A DNA stretch of 64,000 nt. Origin: Alphaproteobacteria bacterium. Its GTDB lineage: Bacteria; Pseudomonadota; Alphaproteobacteria; SP197. The translations under genes were made by a program, and so were the position numbers. Positions 14,248 to 57,059 of the stretch are shown piece after piece; position 1 is the stretch's first letter; each line of letters opens with the position of its first letter. The stretch covers positions 32,001-96,000 of the forward strand of contig OZ219918.1 of assembly GCA_964291415.2 (NCBI GenBank), in the 5' to 3' direction. The notes beneath the pieces were generated by a model that was not told the origin of the DNA, searched no databases, and worked only from the letters and a program-made list of their open reading frames with translations.

Positions 14248-14375
14248 GGCGTTGCACCTTGATGCCGAATGCGGATCCTTGCGGACTGCCGACAGGCAGT
14301 TCGCACGCTATCTCAAGGTCAAAAGACCCCTGTCGTCCAGAGGCCAGCCGAAAAAAAGGGGATTATATACTGAGT

Positions 14376-14405
14376 TTGACAAGCGGCGGCATCTCGCCCT
14401 AGCCT
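14376..14405 (+). promoter_or_regulatory. Putative sigma70 promoter for the cargo lipoprotein, -35 inside the TIR
   Basis: TTGACA-18 bp-TAGCCT. Confidence 0.45.
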
Positions 14406-14578
14406 CCATCCTGCAACGTTACACGGACCCGCGAGTCGGGTCGCCCGCCGAATAGAACAGCCCTCAGACCGGCAAGGGGTAGCTCCCCATGCTTGGCGAA
14501 TAGGCGGGGCTTCACCAATCCGTGTGACGTTGCAACGGCCCGGCACCCGCTGGGCTGGCACACCGGAGGGGAGGCTCC

Positions 14579-15973
14579 ATGAATATCAGAAACACGTTAA
14601 CTTCATCGGTGATCGCCGCAGGAATGCTGTTTCTCGCCGCTTGTGGCGGCGGTGGCGGCAGTTCAAGTTCGACGGAGCAACCGACGGTCGGTTTGCCGCC
14701 CAGTGCATCGAACAACGAGTACCGGATACACCTCGGCATCCCAGCGTCTGATGCGAAGCGATCTCCCATCTATCGGACAGGCAACCTGCTTCGCGTCGGC
14801 GTAGATCAAGGGGCTGCACTGGAACGGTTGCCAAAGCTGACGATTCCCGGCTTCCCGGATGTCGAAGTGCGGTACGGCACAATCAGTGACGGCGCGGGCG
14901 GTTCGGCTCTACGCGACTATTTGTCATCGATCGAAGGATCCTATTCGGGCTTGAGCCGCCGGTTGCCAGGTTATGAAGTGCGCGTTATCGGCGCTTCAAC
15001 CGCGGCAGAACGTCGGCGCGTCCTCGCGGCCGTCCAGTTGGTGAACGCCGCCCTGCCGGAGAATGCCAAACTGAGCGTCGGAACGCCACTGCCGGGCTTC
15101 AGCCTCAAGGACACGGTGAATGCGGACGGGCGCTATTTCGGGGCCGGCAGCGAACTGCCGAACACGATTCATGTCGAGTTCACGCCGGAAAGCGAGTTCT
15201 ACGACAGCGACGCCGCTGGCACGTCGTGGGGCGAGTACATGCTTCTGTCACGCGGCGACTTCCCGGCATACACAGACGAGCGCAAGGCCGTGATCCTGAT
15301 AGCCCACGAATTCGTGCACTCGCTCGGGATCGGTGGGCATGTGCCGGAACACTTCGACACGATCATGGAGACTGGCAGCAGGGTCTATGACAATGCCCAG
15401 GGCATCCGACAGCCTGCGTCCTTGCTCTACCCGATCGACCGTGAGGCTGTGCGGGCACTCTACGGACCCTTGCGGAACAGCAACGATCCCAACGATCTCG
15501 GGCCATGGTCCAGCACATCGGAACACTTGTTCGTGGGCAATGAGCATGGCGCGTTCGGCGTCGCAAGCCGCAACGGTTATGCGGAGCCATGGGCGTATGG
15601 AACCACACCGCGAACCAATCTCGCCTCCAACCCGCAACTGTCCGGCACCGTGAACTGGTATGGCGCCCTGGTTGGCTTCACGTCGAACGCCCTACCCATG
15701 GCAGGCGACGCGGGAATCGCCGTTGATCTCACGAACATGGCGGGAACGGCGGCGTTCACGGATCTGACGATCATTTCAATAGACGGTGCGCCGGTTCCGC
15801 AGTGGGCTGACCGAGACCTCCACTACACCATCGCCGTCACCGGCAACACGTTCCGCGAAACCGGAGGCGATGACGGTAGGCTCACCGGCATCTTCGTGGG
15901 CCGTTACCATGAAGCGGCGGGCGGCACGCTGGAGCGGTCCGACTTGTCAGCGGCGTTCGGTGCGGTACGCTGA
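14579..15973 (+). CDS. Lipoprotein with zinc-metallopeptidase motif and C-terminal TbpB-like barrel
   Basis: Lipobox LAAC followed by GGGGGSSS; HEFVHSLGIGGH; C-terminus ...GRLTGIFVG..AAGGTLERSDLSAAFGAVR. Confidence 0.75.
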   Translation: MNIRNTLTSSVIAAGMLFLAACGGGGGSSSSTEQPTVGLPPSASNNEYRIHLGIPASDAKRSPIYRTGNLLRVGVDQGAALERLPKLTIPGFPDVEVRYGTISDGAGGSALRDYLSSIEGSYSGLSRRLPGYEVRVIGASTAAERRRVLAAVQLVNAALPENAKLSVGTPLPGFSLKDTVNADGRYFGAGSELPNTIHVEFTPESEFYDSDAAGTSWGEYMLLSRGDFPAYTDERKAVILIAHEFVHSLGIGGHVPEHFDTIMETGSRVYDNAQGIRQPASLLYPIDREAVRALYGPLRNSNDPNDLGPWSSTSEHLFVGNEHGAFGVASRNGYAEPWAYGTTPRTNLASNPQLSGTVNWYGALVGFTSNALPMAGDAGIAVDLTNMAGTAAFTDLTIISIDGAPVPQWADRDLHYTIAVTGNTFRETGGDDGRLTGIFVGRYHEAAGGTLERSDLSAAFGAVR

Positions 15974-15989
15974 CCACATGGAGACAGAC

Positions 15990-16139
15990 ATGACGGAACA
16001 GACGAAGGGCCCGGACTTGCTCACCTTGGCGATGCGTCGGGTTCAAGCCGAGACGGTCGAAAGACAGGGGCGGGAACCGGAATCCCCGCCCCATGCCGAA
16101 AACGCGTCAGCCGCGGATGCCGCTGACCGTGATGAATGA
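15990..16139 (+). CDS. Small hypothetical passenger protein
   Basis: GGAG RBS upstream; MTEQTKGPDLLTLAMRRVQAETVER. Confidence 0.4.
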   Translation: MTEQTKGPDLLTLAMRRVQAETVERQGREPESPPHAENASAADAADRDE

Positions 16140-16325
16140 ACCGTCCATGAGCCGCTGTTCGTTGACCAATCCGTGAAGCAGTCCCCGGCGGATCGCGCCT
16201 ATCACGGTGGTCTCGATCACGTGAGGACTGGCGTCGGGGATCTCGGTGGCGAGGTCATCAACGGTGTTGAATTCTCGGCCTCGGCAGGTCGTGAGAATGC
16301 GTTGTAGAAGGGATGTCTGAGCCAT
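16107..16325 (-). CDS. Small hypothetical passenger protein (possible winged helix)
   Basis: AAGGAGG RBS; 72 aa; downstream of the transposase on the same strand. Confidence 0.55.
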   Translation of the reverse strand: MAQTSLLQRILTTCRGREFNTVDDLATEIPDASPHVIETTVIGAIRRGLLHGLVNEQRLMDGSFITVSGIRG

Positions 16326-16460
16326 TCGGGCCTCCTTGAATCGGAGGCCGCATGACCCTATGCTGTAGAAATTGTTGCAGCATCCCGCACGGCCTCCAAA
16401 GCAGCGATGCGGGGAAACGGGCGCCCTTGCCGGGGCGCCTGTTTCGAATCTGGGATCAGG

Positions 16461-17444
16461 CTAACAGGAACGCGCCCCAGAAGACAATCCGTTGTCCTCG
16501 ATCAAGGCGCGATAGGCCAGATGCTTGCCGATCATGTGTGTGAACGCGGCTTCCATCTGGTCGATGGTGTCGGCGTCGCGCACATTGTGACGACCGGAAA
16601 ACTCGCTGATGTACCGCGCAAGGTGCTTCGGGCTCATCTTGTGATAGGTGCCCTGATAGCCGCGCTTGAGCATGGACCAGAAAGACTCGATGCCGTTGGT
16701 ATGGGCCATCCCACGCACATATTCGCCGGCGGAGTGGTTCACGGCTTCACGGTCGTAGTACGGATCGAGAATGTTGTAGGCACTGGCCTCATCGGTGAAC
16801 AGCTTGGCGCCGAACTCGGCCTTGGCGACCACGACATTCGAGACCGTCAGAGAGTCGGTCTTGTTGACGCGCTGAGCGGAGACGCGATTGGTGGCCCGAT
16901 CCTTCACGCCGACGATCGTCTCTTTGCCGACCGCGCCGCGTCCGCGCAGTTCCGTGCGCTTGCTCTTGGGCATGTTCTTGCGCTTACCGCCGATGAATGT
17001 CTCGTCGGCTTCGACCGGGCCGGTGAACGCGTCGGAGTCGCCATCTTCCCAAGCATCCCGGAGCCGGTGAAGCATGAACCATGCGGTCTTCTGCGTGACT
17101 TTGAGATCGCGGTGGAGCTTCATGCTGCTCACGCCCTTGAGGTTCGTCATGTAGATGTAGACGGCGAACACCCACTTGCGGAGCGGCAAGCGGGAACCCT
17201 GCAACATCGAGCCGGTGCGGACGGAGAAGTAGGAACGGCACGACTTGCACCAGTAGGGCATCGGCTTGGCGCTCGGCACTTCCCTGGTCTCGGTCGATCC
17301 GCAGTGACCGCAATGGCGTTCACCGTTCGGCCAGCGCGTATCCTCGAACCACCTCACCGCCGATGCCTCGTCGGGGAACATATCGGTCAACTCGATGATC
17401 GAGATACCTTCGCGGTGTGACTTGCCCGGTGCTTTCTGTGCCAT
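16461..17444 (-). CDS. IS1595-family transposase
   Basis: Zn ribbon CGHCG..CKSCR, HTH, VEADETFIGG, FTDE, HTNGIESFW. Confidence 0.95.
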   Translation of the reverse strand: MAQKAPGKSHREGISIIELTDMFPDEASAVRWFEDTRWPNGERHCGHCGSTETREVPSAKPMPYWCKSCRSYFSVRTGSMLQGSRLPLRKWVFAVYIYMTNLKGVSSMKLHRDLKVTQKTAWFMLHRLRDAWEDGDSDAFTGPVEADETFIGGKRKNMPKSKRTELRGRGAVGKETIVGVKDRATNRVSAQRVNKTDSLTVSNVVVAKAEFGAKLFTDEASAYNILDPYYDREAVNHSAGEYVRGMAHTNGIESFWSMLKRGYQGTYHKMSPKHLARYISEFSGRHNVRDADTIDQMEAAFTHMIGKHLAYRALIEDNGLSSGARSC

Positions 17445-17471
17445 GTCCCGACTCCGTGTCTAACTGACCGG

Positions 17472-17500
17472 AATATAGGGATTCTCGTTGCGCTTGTCAA
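17472..17500 (-). promoter_or_regulatory. Sigma70-type transposase promoter, -35 inside the TIR
   Basis: Minus strand TTGACA-17 bp-TATATT upstream of ATG 17444. Confidence 0.7.
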
Positions 17501-17612
17501 GTTCAGTATATAATCCCCCAAAGAAAAGGGAATTATACGCCTAACTAGCCAAAGCGCTTGACACCGGCTGGATAATCACCATTATACTAGCCATATCACA
17601 CGGAGTCGTGAG

Positions 17613-50689: not shown

Positions 50690-51906
50690 GGCGGCGCCTC
50701 TTCTTCCAGGTCTATCTCACGTTTCTTTCGATCATCGTCCTCTTTGGCGTGCTGACCGCGCTGGCATGGTGGTTCATCCCCGATGAACACCGGGCGGGCG
50801 ATTTCACCCGGGGCATGGGGTCCTATCTCCAGGAGACGCTGCCGCCTGTCGGAGCGCCACGCCACCAAATCGACGCCCATCTCGCCCGCCTGGCGGAGCA
50901 CTTCGACGTCAACCTCGTCCTGCTGGCTCCCGACGGTGCCATCCTGGGGCGTTCCGGCTCCGGGGAGGAGAGGCGGCACCGCCGGCACGCCATCATGCTT
51001 TCCGACGGACGGACCATGGAGGTCGTCTGGTCGAAGGATGGTGTCTCCGGAGCCGGATTCATCGTCGTTCCCGGGCTTCTCGCGCTGGCTGCCGCCATCG
51101 GCGCCTGGCCCCTGTCGCGCCGCCTCGCCGGCCGTCTCGAGCGGCTGAAGTCCAGGGTCGAGGCCCTGGGTTCAGGGGACCTACAGGCGCGTGTCAAGGT
51201 CGAGGGCAGGGACGAGATCGCCGCCCTCGCGACGAGCTTCAACCACGCCGCCGGGCGTATCGAGGACCTTGTGGAGGCCCAGCGCAACACCCTGGCGGCA
51301 GCATCCCATGAACTGCGATCTCCGCTGGCGAGGATCGCCATGGCCACAGGATTGCTCGCCGACACAGCGGATCCACAACTGGTCGCCAGGATCGAGCGCG
51401 ACATTGCGGAGCTCGATCAGCTGATTGACCAAATCCTGCTCGGCAGCCGCCTCGAGATCGAGGAGGGACCGGCCCGTCTCGACGAGATCGATCTTGGCGC
51501 ACTCGCCGCCGAGGAGGCGGCACGCTTCGAGGTCGCGTTCACTGGCGGCACGGCCGTGATCGAGGCCGAGGAACACCTGGTCCGTCACCTCGTGCGCAAC
51601 CTTCTCGGCAATGCTCGGCGTCATGCCGCGGGAAGTCCAGTGAGCGTCGAAGTCGCGGCTGACGGACCAGGGGTGCGCCTTCGTGTCGCCGACAGGGGCC
51701 CCGGGGTGAGCGAATCCATGAGGGAGAGCATCTTCGAGCCGTTCCGCTCCTTCGCCGCTGATGGCACGGGTGCCGGTCTCGGTCTCTATCTGGTGCGGCG
51801 CATCGCGAGACGCTACGGTGGCGACGCAGTCTGCCTCGAGAGGCCAGGCGGTGGCGCGCTCTTCGACGTCAGCCTGCCTGCCAAGGAAGAGGAGCAGGGC
51901 CCATGA
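50686..51906 (+). CDS. HAMP sensor histidine kinase
   Basis: SHELRSPLARI, NLLGNA, DRGPG, GAGLGL. Confidence 0.95.
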   Translation: MRRRLFFQVYLTFLSIIVLFGVLTALAWWFIPDEHRAGDFTRGMGSYLQETLPPVGAPRHQIDAHLARLAEHFDVNLVLLAPDGAILGRSGSGEERRHRRHAIMLSDGRTMEVVWSKDGVSGAGFIVVPGLLALAAAIGAWPLSRRLAGRLERLKSRVEALGSGDLQARVKVEGRDEIAALATSFNHAAGRIEDLVEAQRNTLAAASHELRSPLARIAMATGLLADTADPQLVARIERDIAELDQLIDQILLGSRLEIEEGPARLDEIDLGALAAEEAARFEVAFTGGTAVIEAEEHLVRHLVRNLLGNARRHAAGSPVSVEVAADGPGVRLRVADRGPGVSESMRESIFEPFRSFAADGTGAGLGLYLVRRIARRYGGDAVCLERPGGGALFDVSLPAKEEEQGP

Positions 51907-52533
51907 CAAGCACGCTCGATGCCGGCGGCTTTGACGTCTCTGCCGAGCACTCGACCACGCTGCCCTCGAGCTGGTACCGCGATCCCGCCATCTGGCGCCT
52001 CGAGCACGAGGCGATCTTCTACCGCAGCTGGTGGTATCTTGGACATGTCAGCGATCTCCCCCGACGCGGCGACTACCTCACCGGCAGGATTGCCGATCAG
52101 AATGTTCTCGTCATCAGGGGTCACGACGGGGTGTTGCGCGCCTTTCACAACGTGTGCAGCCACCGCGCTCATCCGCTGCTCGAGGGCTGCGGCAACACGG
52201 CCTTCATCACCTGCCCCTACCACCAGTGGACCTACGACGCGAACGGCCGCTTTCGCAACGGCCGGGGATGCGAGCCCCTGAGGGAGTGGACTGACGCGAA
52301 CGCCGACCTCAAGCCTGTGCGGCTCGAGGACTATGGCGGCTTTCTCTTCGTCAACCTCGATGCCGGTGCGATCCCCCTCATCGACCAGGCGGGGCGCTTT
52401 CTCGAGAACATGCGCCGCGCCTGTCCGCGGTTGCCGGACCTGGTGCGCGCCTGTCGCTGGGAAGTCGACGTGGCGGCGAACTGGAAGACGGTGATCGACA
52501 AGGGGATTACATACGTAACTTGACAGAATCGAC

Positions 52534-52562
52534 TTGACATCCAGTGGTGTTATCGGCATGAT
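52534..52562 (+). promoter_or_regulatory. Putative tnpB promoter
   Basis: TTGACA-17 bp-CATGAT, then GGAG RBS before ATG 52604. Confidence 0.55.
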
Positions 52563-53794
52563 TTCGCGAAGTAAATCAGTGTCCGCAACACCGGAGTCCC
52601 CGCATGTCGTCCTCTGTCACCTATCGACAGATCACCTTTCGCCTGCTGCCCGAGAAGCGCAGCACCTGGCGGCGGCTGGACGCCATGCTCGACGCGCAGC
52701 GCTGTCTCTACAACGCGGCGCTCGAGGAACGGATCGACTGCTACCGGAAGACCGGGAAGTCACTCACCTACTTCGATCAGGCAAAGTCCCTGACCTTGTG
52801 CCGGAAGGTTCTGCCGGACATGGCTGCGATGCCGGTGGCCATCCAGCGAGGGACGCTCAAGCGCCTCGATCATGCCTTCAAGGGGTTCTTCCAGCGGGTG
52901 AGCCAAGGTGGGGCCGGGTTCCCCCGGTTCCAGGGACGCCGGCATTTCAACAGCCTGTCCGTGGTCTCCGGCGTCAGGGTCGAGGGCAACCGTCTGCGCA
53001 TCCCCGGCCTGGGCTGGCTCACCATTCGCCGCCGGGGCGGCAATCCCTGGCCGCAGGGCACGCCGGTGAGCGCGGTTCTCAAGCGCGAGGAGGGACGCTG
53101 GAAGGCGGTGGTATGCCATGCGGTGTCTCTGCCGGAACCGGACGACAACGGCCATGCCGTCGGCGTGGACATGAATGCGGGCCAGGTGGCGACCTCGGAC
53201 GGGGAGATCCTGCGCCTGGAGAGGAGCCGGCGTCTTGAGGCCCGCGCCCGGCGCTATGCCAGGCAGCTGGCGCGGCAGCGCCGTGGCAGCAGACGCCGGG
53301 AGAAGACGCGGCGGCGTCTGTCGAAGACCACCCGGCGCATGGCGATGAAGCGCCATGACTGGCAGCACCATGTCAGCCGCCGCCTGGCGGATGCGGCCGG
53401 CACGGTGGTGGTCGAGGATCTGAAGGTCCGCAACATGACCCGCAGCGTCAGGGGCACGAAGGAGGAGCCGGGACGCCACGTGCGCTCCAAGGCGTCATCC
53501 TGGAGACGGGCTGGTCGTCGTTCCGGAGAATGCTGGACTACAAGGCGCGCCGCGTCATCGCGGTGAACCCGGCCTGGACCAGCCAGACCTGTGCAGCGTG
53601 CGGCGTCGCAAGCGCCCAATCACGCAGGACGCGGGATCTCTTTCAATGCGTGGCGTGCGGCCATGCGGATCATGCCGACCTTGTATGACCGGGTTTCATT
53701 CCCGTGATCACGTCATCCACAGCGGTTGGGATTGGGAAAGTGTGGACAACTGCGGTTGTGTAGGAGCTGTCCGGTCTATGGTTTCAGAGAGATT

Positions 53795-53989
53795 CCGCTC
53801 CCCTGCGCGAGGGCGCACAGGGGAGCGGGGTGCGGAGATCTCACGATCCCCGCGGAGGTCGGTCGGAGCCGACCTGGCTTTGTAGAGCCGTCATTGAGCT
53901 TGGTCGGCCGGCCTCCCTTGACGTCCCTCGCGTCCTGAATGGATGCCTGGGCTTGGACCGTATCATCACAAGGCGAGGAGCAAGGGACG
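53795..53989 (+). ncRNA. Predicted IS110 bridge RNA
   Basis: 5' hairpin 53795-53828; target loop with GCCGACCT (53868-53875) and CATTGAG (53892-53898); donor loop with ATGGATGC (53939-53946) and ACAAG (53968-53972); true 5' end may lie nearer 53700. Confidence 0.8.
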
Positions 53990-54915
53990 ATGGTTAAGGT
54001 AGTGGCAGGGATCGATGTCGGCAAGGCCAGCCTGGACATCTGCGCGGCGGGCAGACGCGTCGTTTTGCCAACGACGCCACGAGCTGGCGGGCGCTGGGTG
54101 CGTGGCTTCGGGGTCTCGAGGTGAGCCGGGTGGTGATGGAGGCGACGGGCCGCTATCACCGCAGGGTTCACCAGTGTCTTCATGACCGGGGCTTCGAGGT
54201 CATCGTGATCAACCCGTTGCGGGCCCGGCGCTTCGCCGAGGTGATGGGCCATCTGGCCAAGACCGACCGCGTCGACGCGTTGATGCTGGCCAGGCTGGGG
54301 ACGGCGCTGGGCGACGATCTTGAGCCGGTGGCCCCTCAGGAGGCCTTCCTCAACCGCTTGGAGGATCTCCTGGTGGTGCGCGCCAGGCATGTCGATACGC
54401 GGACCATGCTGAGGCAGGTGGCGGGTGAGGTGGACGGCGAGGGCGAGACCCTCACACGGGCCACGATCGCCGATCTCGACGAAAGGATTGCCGCACTGGA
54501 TGCGGCGATCGAAGCGCTGATCGCCGGTGATCCCGAACAGGCCGAGCGGTACAGCATCCTGATCTCGATCCCCGGCGTCGGTCCGGTGACCGCCGCGGCC
54601 CTTCTTTGCTGGATGCCCGAACTCGGCAGTCTCGAGGGTCGCCAGGCGGCAGCGTTGATCGGGGTGGCGCCGGTTGCCGACGACAGCGGCCAGCACCACG
54701 GCGCCCGGCACATTCGCGGCGGGCGCCGCAGGCCACGCGATCTCCTGTTCATGGCCGCGACTTCGGCGTCACGCTACAATCAGGATCTCGCCATCGTGTT
54801 CCAACGCCTCAAGGCCGCCGGCAAGGCCCACAAGGTGGCGATCGTTGCCGTGATGCGCAAACTCATCGCGCTGGCGAACGTCCTGTTGCGGGAACAGCGC
54901 TGCCGCCTGAAGCAC
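53990..54915 (+). pseudogene. IS110-family recombinase, frameshift near 54052
   Basis: GIDVGK, MEATG, KTDRVDA (DEDD), SIPGVG, DDSG, IRGGR, VAVMRKL; 3' end approximate. Confidence 0.9.
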
Positions 54916-54917
54916 CG

Positions 54918-55460
54918 GCACGCTCACCGGCGTGAAGGAGACTCCCTCATGGCCCTCACGCCTGCAGAGAAGCAGCGCCGTTATCGGGAACGGCTCAAGG
55001 CCGGCATGTCTCCCGTGCGCACCCGCAAGCTCCGTGACCGACGCTCGCGGGCCCAACGCTGGTGCGATGCGGTGGCCGAACTCGGCGCACTGCAGGAGCA
55101 CTATCGGGACTGTCTCGACAGGCTCCCGGACTCGCTGCACGACACAGCCTATGGAGAGCGCCTGCAGATCATCGTCGAGGCCGACATCGAGGCCCTCGAG
55201 GAGATCGAGCCTCCGCGCGGCTACGGACGGACACATGACACATGACACCTGGAGCCCCATTGTGCGCGGTAACGTTCTGACTGTGGTCACAATGCCCGGC
55301 ACCCTCATGCCGGGTAACGTTACCGCAATCAATGGCGAACACCCCACTCATGCTGCCGGGCGAACTCAACGTCTCCCTGGCCACGGGGCGTAGACACCGC
55401 AATGTCGGAACGTCAGACCGCATGGGGACAGACCAGGGAAACATCTTCACGCACGCTCAC
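54918..55460. repeat. 10-bp direct repeats GCACGCTCAC bounding an insert
   Basis: Copies at 54918-54927 and 55451-55460. Confidence 0.7.
54949..55245 (+). CDS. Small hypothetical protein (TPAEKQRRYRER motif)
   Basis: Own RBS GAAGGAG; basic N-terminal helix; ..EEIEPPRGYGR end. Confidence 0.7.
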   Translation: MALTPAEKQRRYRERLKAGMSPVRTRKLRDRRSRAQRWCDAVAELGALQEHYRDCLDRLPDSLHDTAYGERLQIIVEADIEALEEIEPPRGYGRTHDT

Positions 55461-56150
55461 AAAAACCTTGCACCGAAACATGGATGCTCAATGCAGCGGC
55501 GAACATTCTGGCCTCGGGGACTGGGGCATCTGCGCGGGGAGGTTGCCGGGTTGCCGGGCCTGTGAACCGCGAAATCGATCGGAGGATGGCAGCATGACGC
55601 TGTCAACTTCTCGATATAAGTCCCATCGACAACAATCACGAGTGCTACCACTGCGATGTCAATCACCGCTCGCTGATGGAACTCGTCGACTATGACGGCC
55701 AGGCCGCATGGTCCGATGACGGCATCACCTTCAGCCACAGGATCACCGCCAGGGATCTCGACAACACGGCCTATCGCCTCGAAGCGGCGGACGTTGAACA
55801 GCCCGAAGCCCTCTTCGGCTATATCTGGCCCACCGCAATCCCCCTCATGTACCCGGGCAGCCCCCATCTGGCGATGTTCCAGGTTCTGCCCACCGGCCCC
55901 GAAACCACCCGCGAGAGATGGGACTTCTACTTCACGTCCCGCGAGCCCTCCGAACTCGAGAGGCGGTTCATGGACTACATCCGCACCGTCCTCGTGGTCG
56001 AGGATGTCCGGCTCTGCGAGAACGTCCAGCAGGGTCTCCACTCGCTCGGCTACCACCAGGGACGGTTCGTCGTCGACAGGGATCACCCCGAATTCAGTGA
56101 GCACCACGTGCACTTCTTCCAGTCCATGGTGCGCGACTCGCTGAAGTCCG

Positions 56151-57059
56151 TCACGGCGTGACCGGAACGAGGCGCCCCAGGACAAGTCCGGCAAAGACCA
56201 GGAGGCCAATCCGGTTGTTGGCGGAAAAGGCCCTGTGGCAGGAGGCCGGGTCATCGAGATCGACGGTGACGAGCTGCCTTGCCAGATCGGCGGCGGCGAC
56301 GGCGAGGACCACCAGGAAGGGCCACCCGGTCCCTGTCAGGTAACCGGCCAGGGCTGCCCCGGCAACGAAGACGCCGTAGAAGAGACCGGTGAGGGGTTTC
56401 GAGCTCTCGCCGAAGGCAAGGGCCGTCGACTTCACGCCGACCCGCTCGTCATCCGTCTTGTCCTGGTGGGCATAGATCGTGTCGTAACCGATCGTCCATG
56501 CGATGGCGGCGAGGTAAAGCACCAGGGGTTCCGGTGAGAGCGCGCCCCTGACCGCGACCCAGCCCACCAGGGCCCCCCAGCTGAAGGCGAGGCCGAGAAA
56601 GAGCTGCGGCCAGTAGGTGACGCGTTTCATGAAGGGATAGATGACCACCAGGCCAAGGGAGGCGAGCCCAGTGATGATCGCTGCCTGGTTGAGCTGGAGA
56701 AGCACGATCAATCCTGCGGCAAGCAGCAGGCCAAGGAAGACCAGGGCGCCTGGCAGCGTCACGGCGCCACTGGCGAGGGGACGGTCGCGGGTCCGCTCAA
56801 CCCGGGCGTCGATCCGCCGGTCGACGATGTCGTTGACGATGCAGCCGGCGGACCGCATCACCACGGCTCCGGCGGCGAAGAGGCCAAGGAGCGTCCAGTC
56901 CGGCCATCCAGGCGAAGCCAGGGCAACCGCCCACCAGCAGGGCCACATCAGGAGCCAGAAGCCAGCGGGCCTGTCGACGCGCGCCAGTTGCAGCCACGGT
57001 CGCCACTCGACGGGCGCCCGTGCGTTGACCCACTCCCTGAAGAACGGACGCCGGCTCAT
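56151..57059 (-). CDS. ubiA: 4-hydroxybenzoate polyprenyltransferase
   Basis: RVDRPAG, MRSAGCIVNDIVDRRID, RPLASG, YDTIYAHQDKTDD. Confidence 0.95.
   Translation of the reverse strand: MSRRPFFREWVNARAPVEWRPWLQLARVDRPAGFWLLMWPCWWAVALASPGWPDWTLLGLFAAGAVVMRSAGCIVNDIVDRRIDARVERTRDRPLASGAVTLPGALVFLGLLLAAGLIVLLQLNQAAIITGLASLGLVVIYPFMKRVTYWPQLFLGLAFSWGALVGWVAVRGALSPEPLVLYLAAIAWTIGYDTIYAHQDKTDDERVGVKSTALAFGESSKPLTGLFYGVFVAGAALAGYLTGTGWPFLVVLAVAAADLARQLVTVDLDDPASCHRAFSANNRIGLLVFAGLVLGRLVPVTP

What the first reader, a model, noticed from the sequence alone, without database searches (positions are those of the whole stretch)
53671..55500. IS110 bridge RNA programmed against the RuvC-III catalytic codons of tnpB
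Seen: the reconstructed target is gccgacCTcaatg (codons A-D-L-N-A, including the RuvC-III Asp). In the IS110 leader, a stem (ggaggtcggtcg / cggccggcctcc, with G-U pairs) encloses GCCGACCT (53868-53875, left target plus core), a short hairpin, and CATTGAG (53892-53898, revcomp of CTcaatg). A second stem (cgtccct / agggacg) encloses ATGGATGC and TCATcACAAG, matching the circle junction atggatgCTtgtatga. Established: this hairpin / target-loop / donor-loop order is the IS110 bridge RNA layout, so a match to the insertion site is expected. Inference: the programmed 13-nt target is a strongly conserved motif of another RNA-guided element, giving a renewable safe harbour and inactivating TnpB.
Basis: partly seen in the sequence, partly recalled or inferred. 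Interest (0 to 1): 0.9.

Follow-up and report, generated by a model that had tools for sequence, protein, structure and literature searches.

The report
Decayed IS110 inserted in tnpB
A now-broken RNA-guided insertion sequence of the IS110 family sits right after the catalytic aspartate codon of another mobile element's tnpB gene, at a site that its own guide RNA matches perfectly; this is a new target for a known mechanism.

Summary
Window 53682-55486 is an IS110-family element flanked by CT cores and inserted after the RuvC-III Asp codon of a tnpB gene. Its leader has the bridge-RNA layout. The target loop matches the flanks at 11 of 11 non-core positions. Non-cognate pairings in the family average 3.5 of 11 and never exceed 7 of 366.

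Thirteen leader variants from relatives keep the scaffold, with compensatory pairs, and vary at the guide positions.

In this genome the other five exact 13-mers all lie in copies or a remnant of the same tnpB element.

The adaptive reading rests on one insertion. Only 1 of 6 sites is occupied. The copy has three deletions: two in the transposase gene and one in the target loop. The tnpB has its own 13-nt deletion. No second element with these guides could be read with its flanks.

Relatives with other guides sit in other places, none in tnpB. At least 13 of 26 insertions lie in other mobile elements: IS5-like transposase genes, group II introns, and this tnpB. The safe-harbour idea therefore fits a lineage habit, but survivorship bias fits it too.

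Verdict: new member of a known kind.

The parts
51903..52523 (+). 5' part of a Rieske-type ring-hydroxylating oxygenase gene, interrupted by the tnpB host element
   Evidence: Pfam Rieske, 1.5e-21. The reading frame continues as NWKTVID|NNHECYHC across the removed element.
52494..52501 (.). Left copy of the 8-bp target duplication ATCGACAA of the tnpB host element. The right copy is at 55625-55632.
   Evidence: an 8-bp duplication is seen in 7 of 9 paired copies.
52502..55624 (+). tnpB host element. It is 1329 bp in uninterrupted copies and 3123 bp here. Its ends resemble IS1595-family terminal inverted repeats.
52604..53681 (+). tnpB 5' part, up to and including the Asp codon and the CT. It carries its own 13-nt deletion after 53491.
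   Evidence: Pfam OrfB_IS605 4.5e-14 and Cas12f1-like_TNB 3.1e-13. PDB TnpB hits down to 2.3e-32 for the intact paralogue. Deletion shown.
53674..53681 (+). Left target GCCGAC plus the core CT
53682..55486 (+). IS110-family element, 1805 bp between the two CT cores
53684..53689 (+). TATGAC, a -10-like hexamer. In a circle junction it would lie 17 nt after the -35-like TTGCAC at 55468-55473.
   Evidence: Counted by hand on the sequence. This is an inference by analogy with published IS110 circle-junction promoters.
53792..53853 (+). Two 5' stem-loops of the leader RNA
   Evidence: Helices 1 and 2, with 4 pairs changed on both sides.
53854..53916 (+). Target-binding loop. Stem 53854-65 pairs with 53905-16. 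LTG at 53868-75, hairpin at 53876-89, RTG at 53892-98. CCGTT is missing after 53867.
53922..53989 (+). Donor-binding loop. Stem 53922-36 pairs with 53976-89. LDG at 53939-46, RDG at 53963-72.
   Evidence: The G019 copies change the left end and the RDG together (TTATATGA with ..CATAAG).
53990..54935 (+). IS110 DEDD transposase pseudogene (315 aa in relatives). It has a 1-nt deletion between 54052 and 54053 and a 4-nt deletion between 54903 and 54904.
   Evidence: Pfam DEDD_Tnp_IS110 1.3e-16 and Transposase_20 1e-16. Deletions shown.
54949..55245 (+). ORF2, 98 aa. It is conserved at 96 aa in 5 of 5 relatives checked and has no family assignment.
55487..55597 (+). Core CT, right target CAATG (55489-93) and the tnpB 3' part, to the stop at 55595-97
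55676..56161 (+). 3' part of the interrupted Rieske oxygenase gene
   Evidence: Pfam Ring_hydroxyl_A, 2.2e-15.

Best explanation
This is a decayed copy of an IS110-family, bridge-RNA-guided insertion sequence.

The likely mechanism is as follows. A circular intermediate joined the right and left ends. The leader RNA then paired its donor loop with that junction and its target loop with GCCGAC-CT-CAATG. The DEDD recombinase exchanged strands at the CT. That placed the element immediately after the RuvC-III Asp codon of a tnpB gene.

The insertion was on-target. In this genome the guide's only perfect sites are copies or a remnant of that tnpB element, so the element was in effect specific for it.

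The copy later lost function through deletions in the transposase gene and in the target loop.

The choice of another mobile element as target fits the habit of the whole lineage. Its guide variants sit in IS5-like transposase genes, in group II introns and, here, in tnpB.

Shown: the anatomy, the guide/flank match, covariation of scaffold and guides, the distribution of sites, and the lesions.

Inferred: the circle intermediate and its promoter, the order of events, and any selective benefit of targeting tnpB.
For: - **Domains:** both IS110 Pfam domains are present.
- **Ends:** CT cores flank both ends, here and in 26 related copies.
- **Guide geometry:** the LTG has the sense of the top strand and the RTG is its reverse complement, both including the core. 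This is as described for IS621 in passages of PMC11208160.
- **Guide match:** 11 of 11 against a non-cognate maximum of 7 of 11 in 366 pairings.
- **Scaffold:** it shows covariation.
- **Donor guide:** the RDG and the left end change together in G019.
- **Sites in this genome:** 5 of 5 other exact 13-mers are in the tnpB element, and 0 of 19 one-mismatch sites with a CT core are in a tnpB-like frame.
- **Conservation:** the target opens a 26-nt invariant run.
- **Lesions:**. Contigs of three sequencing runs carry the same leader, including the guides, with CCGTT present. Two have 0 other differences and the third (X2) has 3, one of them at the LTG position that pairs with the core C.
- **Lineage habit:** 13 of 26 insertions lie in other mobile elements.
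- **Sister case:** G021 has 9 IS5-like copies. Four hold the IS110, one is cut at the same place, and four empty copies carry a G>A in the left target.
Against: - There is only one insertion in tnpB, and 5 of 6 perfect sites are empty.
- A right-end remnant 95% identical to this copy (G000 C4:639586-639741) is followed by CTCAAGG and is not in tnpB.
- No element with these guides was found among 44 pattern hits in 185,579 species genomes (0 of 44 resemble the IS) or in viral contigs.
- The flanks of the copies seen in other sequencing runs could not be read, because the contigs stop inside the element.
- Enrichment in mobile elements could simply reflect insertions there being harmless and so surviving.
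- Several 'insertions' may be copies of one event. Flanks are 94-99.9% identical within G019 and within G028, and 96-97% within G021.
- Activity was not tested.
Confidence: 0.8

Rival explanations
1. Selected hyper-parasitism. The guides of this lineage are under selection to track conserved coding motifs of co-resident mobile elements, here the RuvC-III codons of tnpB. This gives the IS110 a multi-copy, harmless and self-renewing landing pad and also disables the host element.
For: - All perfect sites in this genome are in the tnpB element.
- The target lies in one of the most conserved stretches of that element.
- A sister variant sits in a motif of an IS5-like transposase gene. It occupies 4 of the 5 copies that carry the matching left target, and the fifth is truncated at that place. 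The 4 empty copies differ by one base there.
- Eight further insertions are in group II introns.
Against: - Occupancy here is 1 of 6 and the element is dead.
- 13 of 26 related insertions were not assigned to any mobile element.
- Survivorship bias and copying of already-nested units give the same picture.
- The 13-mer is not tnpB-specific in related genomes: 15 of 22 exact sites lie elsewhere.
Confidence: 0.3
2. Neutral accident. The guide set arose by drift and happened to match a sequence in a tnpB element. The insertion persisted only because it landed in a gene that was already dispensable, and possibly already broken.
For: - It is a single event.
- The tnpB has an independent 13-nt deletion.
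- The IS110 decayed without spreading to the five free sites.
- Related guide sets hit many unrelated sequences.
Against: - A chance target would fall in a fully invariant 13-nt window in only about 9% of positions.
- The lineage-wide excess of mobile-element targets (13 of 26) calls for at least a survival filter.
Confidence: 0.45
3. The leader is only a 5' untranslated region, and the matches to the flanks are coincidental or copied from the flanks after insertion.
For: Rfam has no matching family. The only hit was a chance snoRNA match at E 0.81.
Against: - Guide positions covary with flanks across 10 guide sets.
- The stems show compensatory changes.
- The same leader, with the same guides, occurs in other samples.
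Confidence: 0.02

Closest known systems
IS621 and other IS110-group bridge-RNA elements (Durrant et al. 2024, PMC11208160; passages read)
   Same: - A DEDD recombinase and a leader RNA upstream of the gene.
- Two internal loops holding left and right guides for target and donor.
- A CT core included in each pairing.
- An LTG with top-strand sense and an RTG as its reverse complement.
   Different: - The target is a coding motif of tnpB rather than a REP-like sequence.
- The guides read 6+2+5 nt.
- The leader is longer, about 300 nt from the left end to the ATG, with two 5' hairpins.
- A conserved 96-98-aa ORF2 follows the transposase gene.
- This copy is broken.
[quoted passage not shown]
   Same: A site-specific IS of this superfamily uses a repeated sequence as its landing site. 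For IS4321/IS5075 that sequence belongs to another mobile element.
   Different: Here the site lies inside the catalytic-motif codons of a nuclease gene, not in a terminal repeat or an extragenic palindrome.
ISDra2-type TnpB of IS200/IS605 elements (PDB 8h1j, 8bf8, 8exa)
   Same: The interrupted gene is a TnpB homologue. The intact paralogue scores E 2.3e-32 over residues 22-388, with the zinc ribbon and the D-x-N-A-A motif.
   Different: The host element has IS1595-like terminal inverted repeats and 8-bp target duplications. It does not have the IS200/IS605 layout.

Membership tests
IS110 family (IS110 group, bridge-RNA elements) | DEDD RuvC-like domain plus the IS116/IS110/IS902 Tnp domain | tested here: met
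   PF01548 at 1.3e-16 and PF02371 at 1e-16 on the ORF after the frameshift. Relatives have an intact 315-aa ORF.
IS110 family (IS110 group, bridge-RNA elements) | Non-coding leader upstream of the transposase gene, folding into target- and donor-binding loops | tested here: met
   There are 308 nt between the left end and the ATG. The consensus structure has 68 pairs, 8 of them compensatory.
IS110 family (IS110 group, bridge-RNA elements) | LTG/RTG complementary to the insertion site and LDG/RDG complementary to the element ends, each including the core | tested here: met
   The match is 11 of 11 non-core positions plus the core. The family-wide cognate mean is 8.71 against 3.53 for non-cognate pairs. 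The RDG and the left end change together in G019. The RDG needs one bulged C.
IS110 family (IS110 group, bridge-RNA elements) | The same core dinucleotide on both sides and no longer target duplication | tested here: met
   CT lies at 53680-81 and 55487-88. CT flanks all 27 related left junctions listed.
IS110 family (IS110 group, bridge-RNA elements) | RNA-guided recombination activity through a circular intermediate | not testable with these tools
   There is only a promoter-like arrangement across the joined ends, counted by hand. This copy has three deletions.
TnpB (RNA-guided nuclease of IS200/IS605-type elements) | OrfB_IS605 RuvC domain, zinc ribbon and the RuvC-III D-x-N-A-A motif | tested here: met
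   The motif HADLNAAANIL is seen in the paralogues.
TnpB (RNA-guided nuclease of IS200/IS605-type elements) | Host element of IS200/IS605 type, with no target duplication and subterminal hairpins | tested here: not met
   There are 8-bp duplications in 7 of 9 copies, and the ends align with the inverted repeats of an IS1595-family element in the same window.
TnpB (RNA-guided nuclease of IS200/IS605-type elements) | Omega RNA encoded at the 3' end | not tested
   No Rfam match in 52000-56500. No further test was made.

The most novel reading that the evidence does not exclude
Within one bacterial genus, an IS110 lineage diversifies its bridge-RNA guides so that each sublineage lands in a conserved, multi-copy sequence of a different co-resident mobile element: the RuvC-III codons of tnpB, a conserved motif of an IS5-like transposase, and group II introns. 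This would be RNA-guided parasitism of mobile elements by a mobile element. Single-base target variants, such as the G>A in the empty IS5-like copies, would act as escape alleles.
Probability: 0.3. Interest if true: 0.65.

Novelty: new member of a known kind. Interest (0 to 1): 0.4.

Why it matters
If the targeting is selected, it would be a natural case of one RNA-guided mobile element aiming at the catalytic codons of another. It would also show how bridge-RNA guides evolve towards repeated, harmless sites.

Practically, the family gives 10 natural guide sets on one conserved scaffold, each with known sites. That is a ready-made natural reprogramming series.

As it stands, the finding is one dead copy, so its main value is as a well-documented example and a lead.

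Tried and rejected
- **Rfam on 52000-56500:** no bridge-RNA or omega-RNA family. The only hit was a chance snoRNA match at E 0.81.
- **Guide-pattern scan of species genomes:** 44 stretches, none with similarity to the IS. All look like chance matches in unrelated sequence.
- **Metagenome guide scan:** 0 hits. That pattern required GA directly before the LTG. It would therefore have missed the form with CCGTT that later showed, so it is a weak negative.
- **Metagenome junction scan:** 0 hits.
- **Other collections:** viral contigs 0, plasmids 0, and 400 other genomes sampled across the class 0 at E 1e-20 or better.
- **Sequencing runs:** 4 runs were laid. Contigs end inside the element. The insertion sites of the same-guide copies in X1, X2 and X3 were therefore not seen, and no conclusion is drawn from uncovered parts. 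In X19 a 68-nt contig identical to the window crosses the left junction with only 29 nt on the IS side. That run may be the same strain, so it is not counted as independent.
- **tnpB tails that start near the site:** the G012 contigs simply begin inside a different tnpB family. G014 C74 is an unexplained truncation.
- **Solo right end at G000 C1:829121:** looked for a partner element and found no tnpB or transposase beside it.
- **Longest ORFs spanning the empty sites:** these were mostly spurious frames in this GC-rich DNA and were not used, except for the IS5-like frame.
- **ORF2 frame error:** one search scanned ORF2 one base out of frame. One search repeats it correctly, giving only PH_3 at E 0.056, below the cut-off.
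- **Literature:** five searches and passages of three papers gave no report of an IS110 inserted in tnpB or of tnpB on IS1595-type ends. Supplementary tables of PMC11208160 and PMC11187229, which list natural targets, were not seen and may bear on this.
Full report
**What is there**

The sequence shows three nested layers. A Rieske-type oxygenase gene (51903-52523 and 55676-56161; Pfam Rieske and Ring_hydroxyl_A) is split by a tnpB-only element (52502-55624). That element is in turn split by an IS110-family element (53682-55486).

The IS110 element is bounded by CT on both sides (53680-81 and 55487-88). The left junction reads gccgac-CT-tgtatga and the right junction atggatg-CT-caatg. The uninterrupted site was therefore GCCGAC-CT-CAATG, the codons A-D-L-N-A.

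Intact paralogues read HADLNAAANIL at this place. In the PDB search the intact paralogue matches TnpB structures (8h1j 2.3e-32, 8bf8/8exa 2.9e-32). The Asp aligns with residue 361 of a 408-aa chain. That this is the RuvC-III catalytic residue of ISDra2 TnpB is recalled, not tested.

**The leader is a bridge RNA**

[quoted passage not shown] That is the geometry seen here:
- GCCGACCT has the sense of the top strand.
- CATTGAG is the reverse complement of CTCAATG.

A DNA search of the 33 genomes of the family found matches to this IS in 17 of them, G000 included. From these I collected 27 left junctions, which give 13 distinct leaders.

The leaders keep the scaffold and differ at the guide positions. 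RNAalifold gives 68 pairs. On these, 98.5% of cells are paired. Eight pairs change on both sides against 3.4 in shuffles (0 of 500 shuffles reach that), and slid controls pair in 41-49% of cells. Three of the compensatory pairs are in the target-loop stem. The donor-loop stem never varies and so says nothing either way.

Taking the 6 nt before the core and the 5 nt after it, 21 unique guide/site pairs from 10 guide sets match at a mean of 8.71 of 11. The 366 non-cognate pairings average 3.53 and never exceed 7. The window copy is the only one at 11 of 11 (L068 was left out because its loop could not be parsed).

The donor guides fit the ends. In G019, a change in the left end (TTATATGA) is matched by a change in the RDG.

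Across a joined right-left end, TTGCAC (55468-73), 17 nt and TATGAC (53684-89) would form a promoter-like site. I counted this by hand, and it is an inference.

**This copy is broken**

Relative to its relatives it has three lesions:
- It lacks one C between 54052 and 54053, in codon 22.
- It lacks four bases between 54903 and 54904.
- It lacks CCGTT after 53867, in the target loop.

In the relatives, CCG of that pentamer extends the loop stem. Contigs of three sequencing runs (X19, X1, X2) carry this same leader, including both guides, with CCGTT present. X19 and X1 show no other difference, while X2 shows 3, one of them at the LTG position that pairs with the core C. The loss is therefore specific to this copy.

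The tnpB is independently damaged by a 13-nt deletion after 53491, which removes the G-L-N codons and shifts the frame. The order of the events is unknown.

**Is tnpB the programmed target?**

In favour:
- The genome holds five other exact copies of the 13-mer. All are in copies or a remnant of the same tnpB element.
- None of the 19 one-mismatch sites with a CT core is in a tnpB-like frame.
- Among 9 full copies of the element from 5 genomes (87-97% identical), only 117 of 1317 13-nt windows are invariant. The target opens the second-longest invariant run, 26 nt.

Against:
- Only 1 of 6 sites is occupied.
- The genome has no second full copy. There is only a 5'-cut copy (90% identical) lacking its right end, and a 154-nt right-end remnant (95% identical). 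The remnant's flank CTCAAGG is not tnpB.
- None of the related copies with other guides lies next to tnpB: tblastn gave 0 hits on loci L030-L076.
- In the 32 other genomes of the family, the exact 13-mer occurs 22 times, 7 in tnpB and 15 elsewhere.
- More distant tnpB families carry other bases at the site.
- No further element with these guides was found in species genomes (44 pattern hits, 0 related), viral contigs or plasmids. The IS subfamily was not found in 400 other genomes sampled across the class.

**A habit of the lineage**

I rebuilt the empty sites of 26 insertions (L068 left out) and compared them with each other and with three mobile-element proteins. I added Pfam and Rfam scans of some flanks. 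This places 13 of the 26 in other mobile elements:

| Host element | Insertions | Evidence |
|---|---|---|
| tnpB | 1 | this window |
| IS5-like DDE transposase gene of G021 | 4 | Pfam DDE_Tnp_1 on a fragment; 95-100% identical spanning frame; |
| Group II introns | 8 | Pfam RVT_1, tblastn, and Rfam group-II-D1D4-6 at 123-170 bits beside or between the copies; |

The other 13 were not classified, so 13 is a lower bound.

G021 holds nine copies of the IS5-like element:
- Four carry the IS110.
- One is truncated at the same point, after six bases of the IS110 left end.
- Four empty copies carry G>A in the left target.

This pattern fits guide-specified saturation of a repeated target. It also fits copying of already-nested units, and flanks within G019, G021 and G028 are 94-99.9% identical. 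Survivorship bias, meaning that insertions in mobile elements do no harm, explains the excess as well.

**Comparison with what is known, and verdict**

The mechanism is that of IS621-type elements. Site-specific members of this superfamily that land in repeated sequences, including parts of other transposons, are already known. I saw the titles on Tn21 inverted repeats and on REP sequences in the reference list returned, and the ISPpu9/ISPpu10 abstracts.

I found no report of an IS110 in tnpB in five searches and three papers read in passages. I could not see the supplementary target tables.

I rate this a new member of a known kind. It is well documented but rests on one dead copy. The adaptive reading remains open at about 0.3.

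Noticed in passing
It makes 8-bp target duplications in 7 of 9 paired copies. Its ends share GGGnnTTnnATnnnnAnnTTGACA, in register, with the inverted repeats of an IS1595-family element in the same window. This suggests a tnpB carried on a non-autonomous IS1595-type element. A search for TnpB plus IS1595 listed 9 papers, none on this by title or abstract.
   Followed up: partly
window 14358-17518: A 3.16-kb element with inverted repeats of about 25 nt. It carries an IS1595-family transposase (16461-17444, minus strand; PF12762 1.2e-36) and a 464-aa passenger ORF with no Pfam family (14579-15973). It is a possible mobiliser of the tnpB elements.
   Followed up: partly
window 54949-55245; L052 1412-1717: ORF2 of the IS110 element is 98 aa here and 96 aa in 5 of 5 relatives, with no Pfam family. 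Its segment also recurs without the IS110 many times in G018, G019 and G024. In one of those places it lies just after an IS66-like transposase ORF, a name I judged by eye.
   Followed up: partly
L143 (G014 C74), about 2085-2100: A tnpB tail begins at ..gaCCTCAATGCAGC, at the IS110 target. The sequence directly upstream looks like an antitoxin/PIN-toxin pair (judged by eye), and no IS110 is present. This may be a rearrangement with a breakpoint at the target.
   Followed up: no
L157 (G021 C2:115373-118771), about 1495-1501: An IS5-like copy is cut exactly at the IS110 target. The CT is followed by six bases of the IS110 left end and then by unrelated chromosomal DNA with a MazG-like ORF, judged by eye.
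   Followed up: no
L002 (G000 C1:121838-123053): A second IS110 copy, 90% identical. It starts at IS position 544, directly after the end of a group II intron-type reverse transcriptase ORF (judged by eye), and it lacks the right end. Rfam found no intron RNA in this locus.
   Followed up: partly
L059 (G028 C1:1143488-1148895): Two IS110 copies with different guide sets lie 328 bp apart in one group II intron, on either side of its D1-D4 RNA segment.
   Followed up: partly
L032, L047, L048, L068: Several multi-copy relatives have short first ORFs (95, 95, 62 and 64 aa) where others have 315 aa. The G021 element is about 78 bp shorter and yet present in at least 8 copies. This may mean mobilisation in trans.
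   Followed up: no
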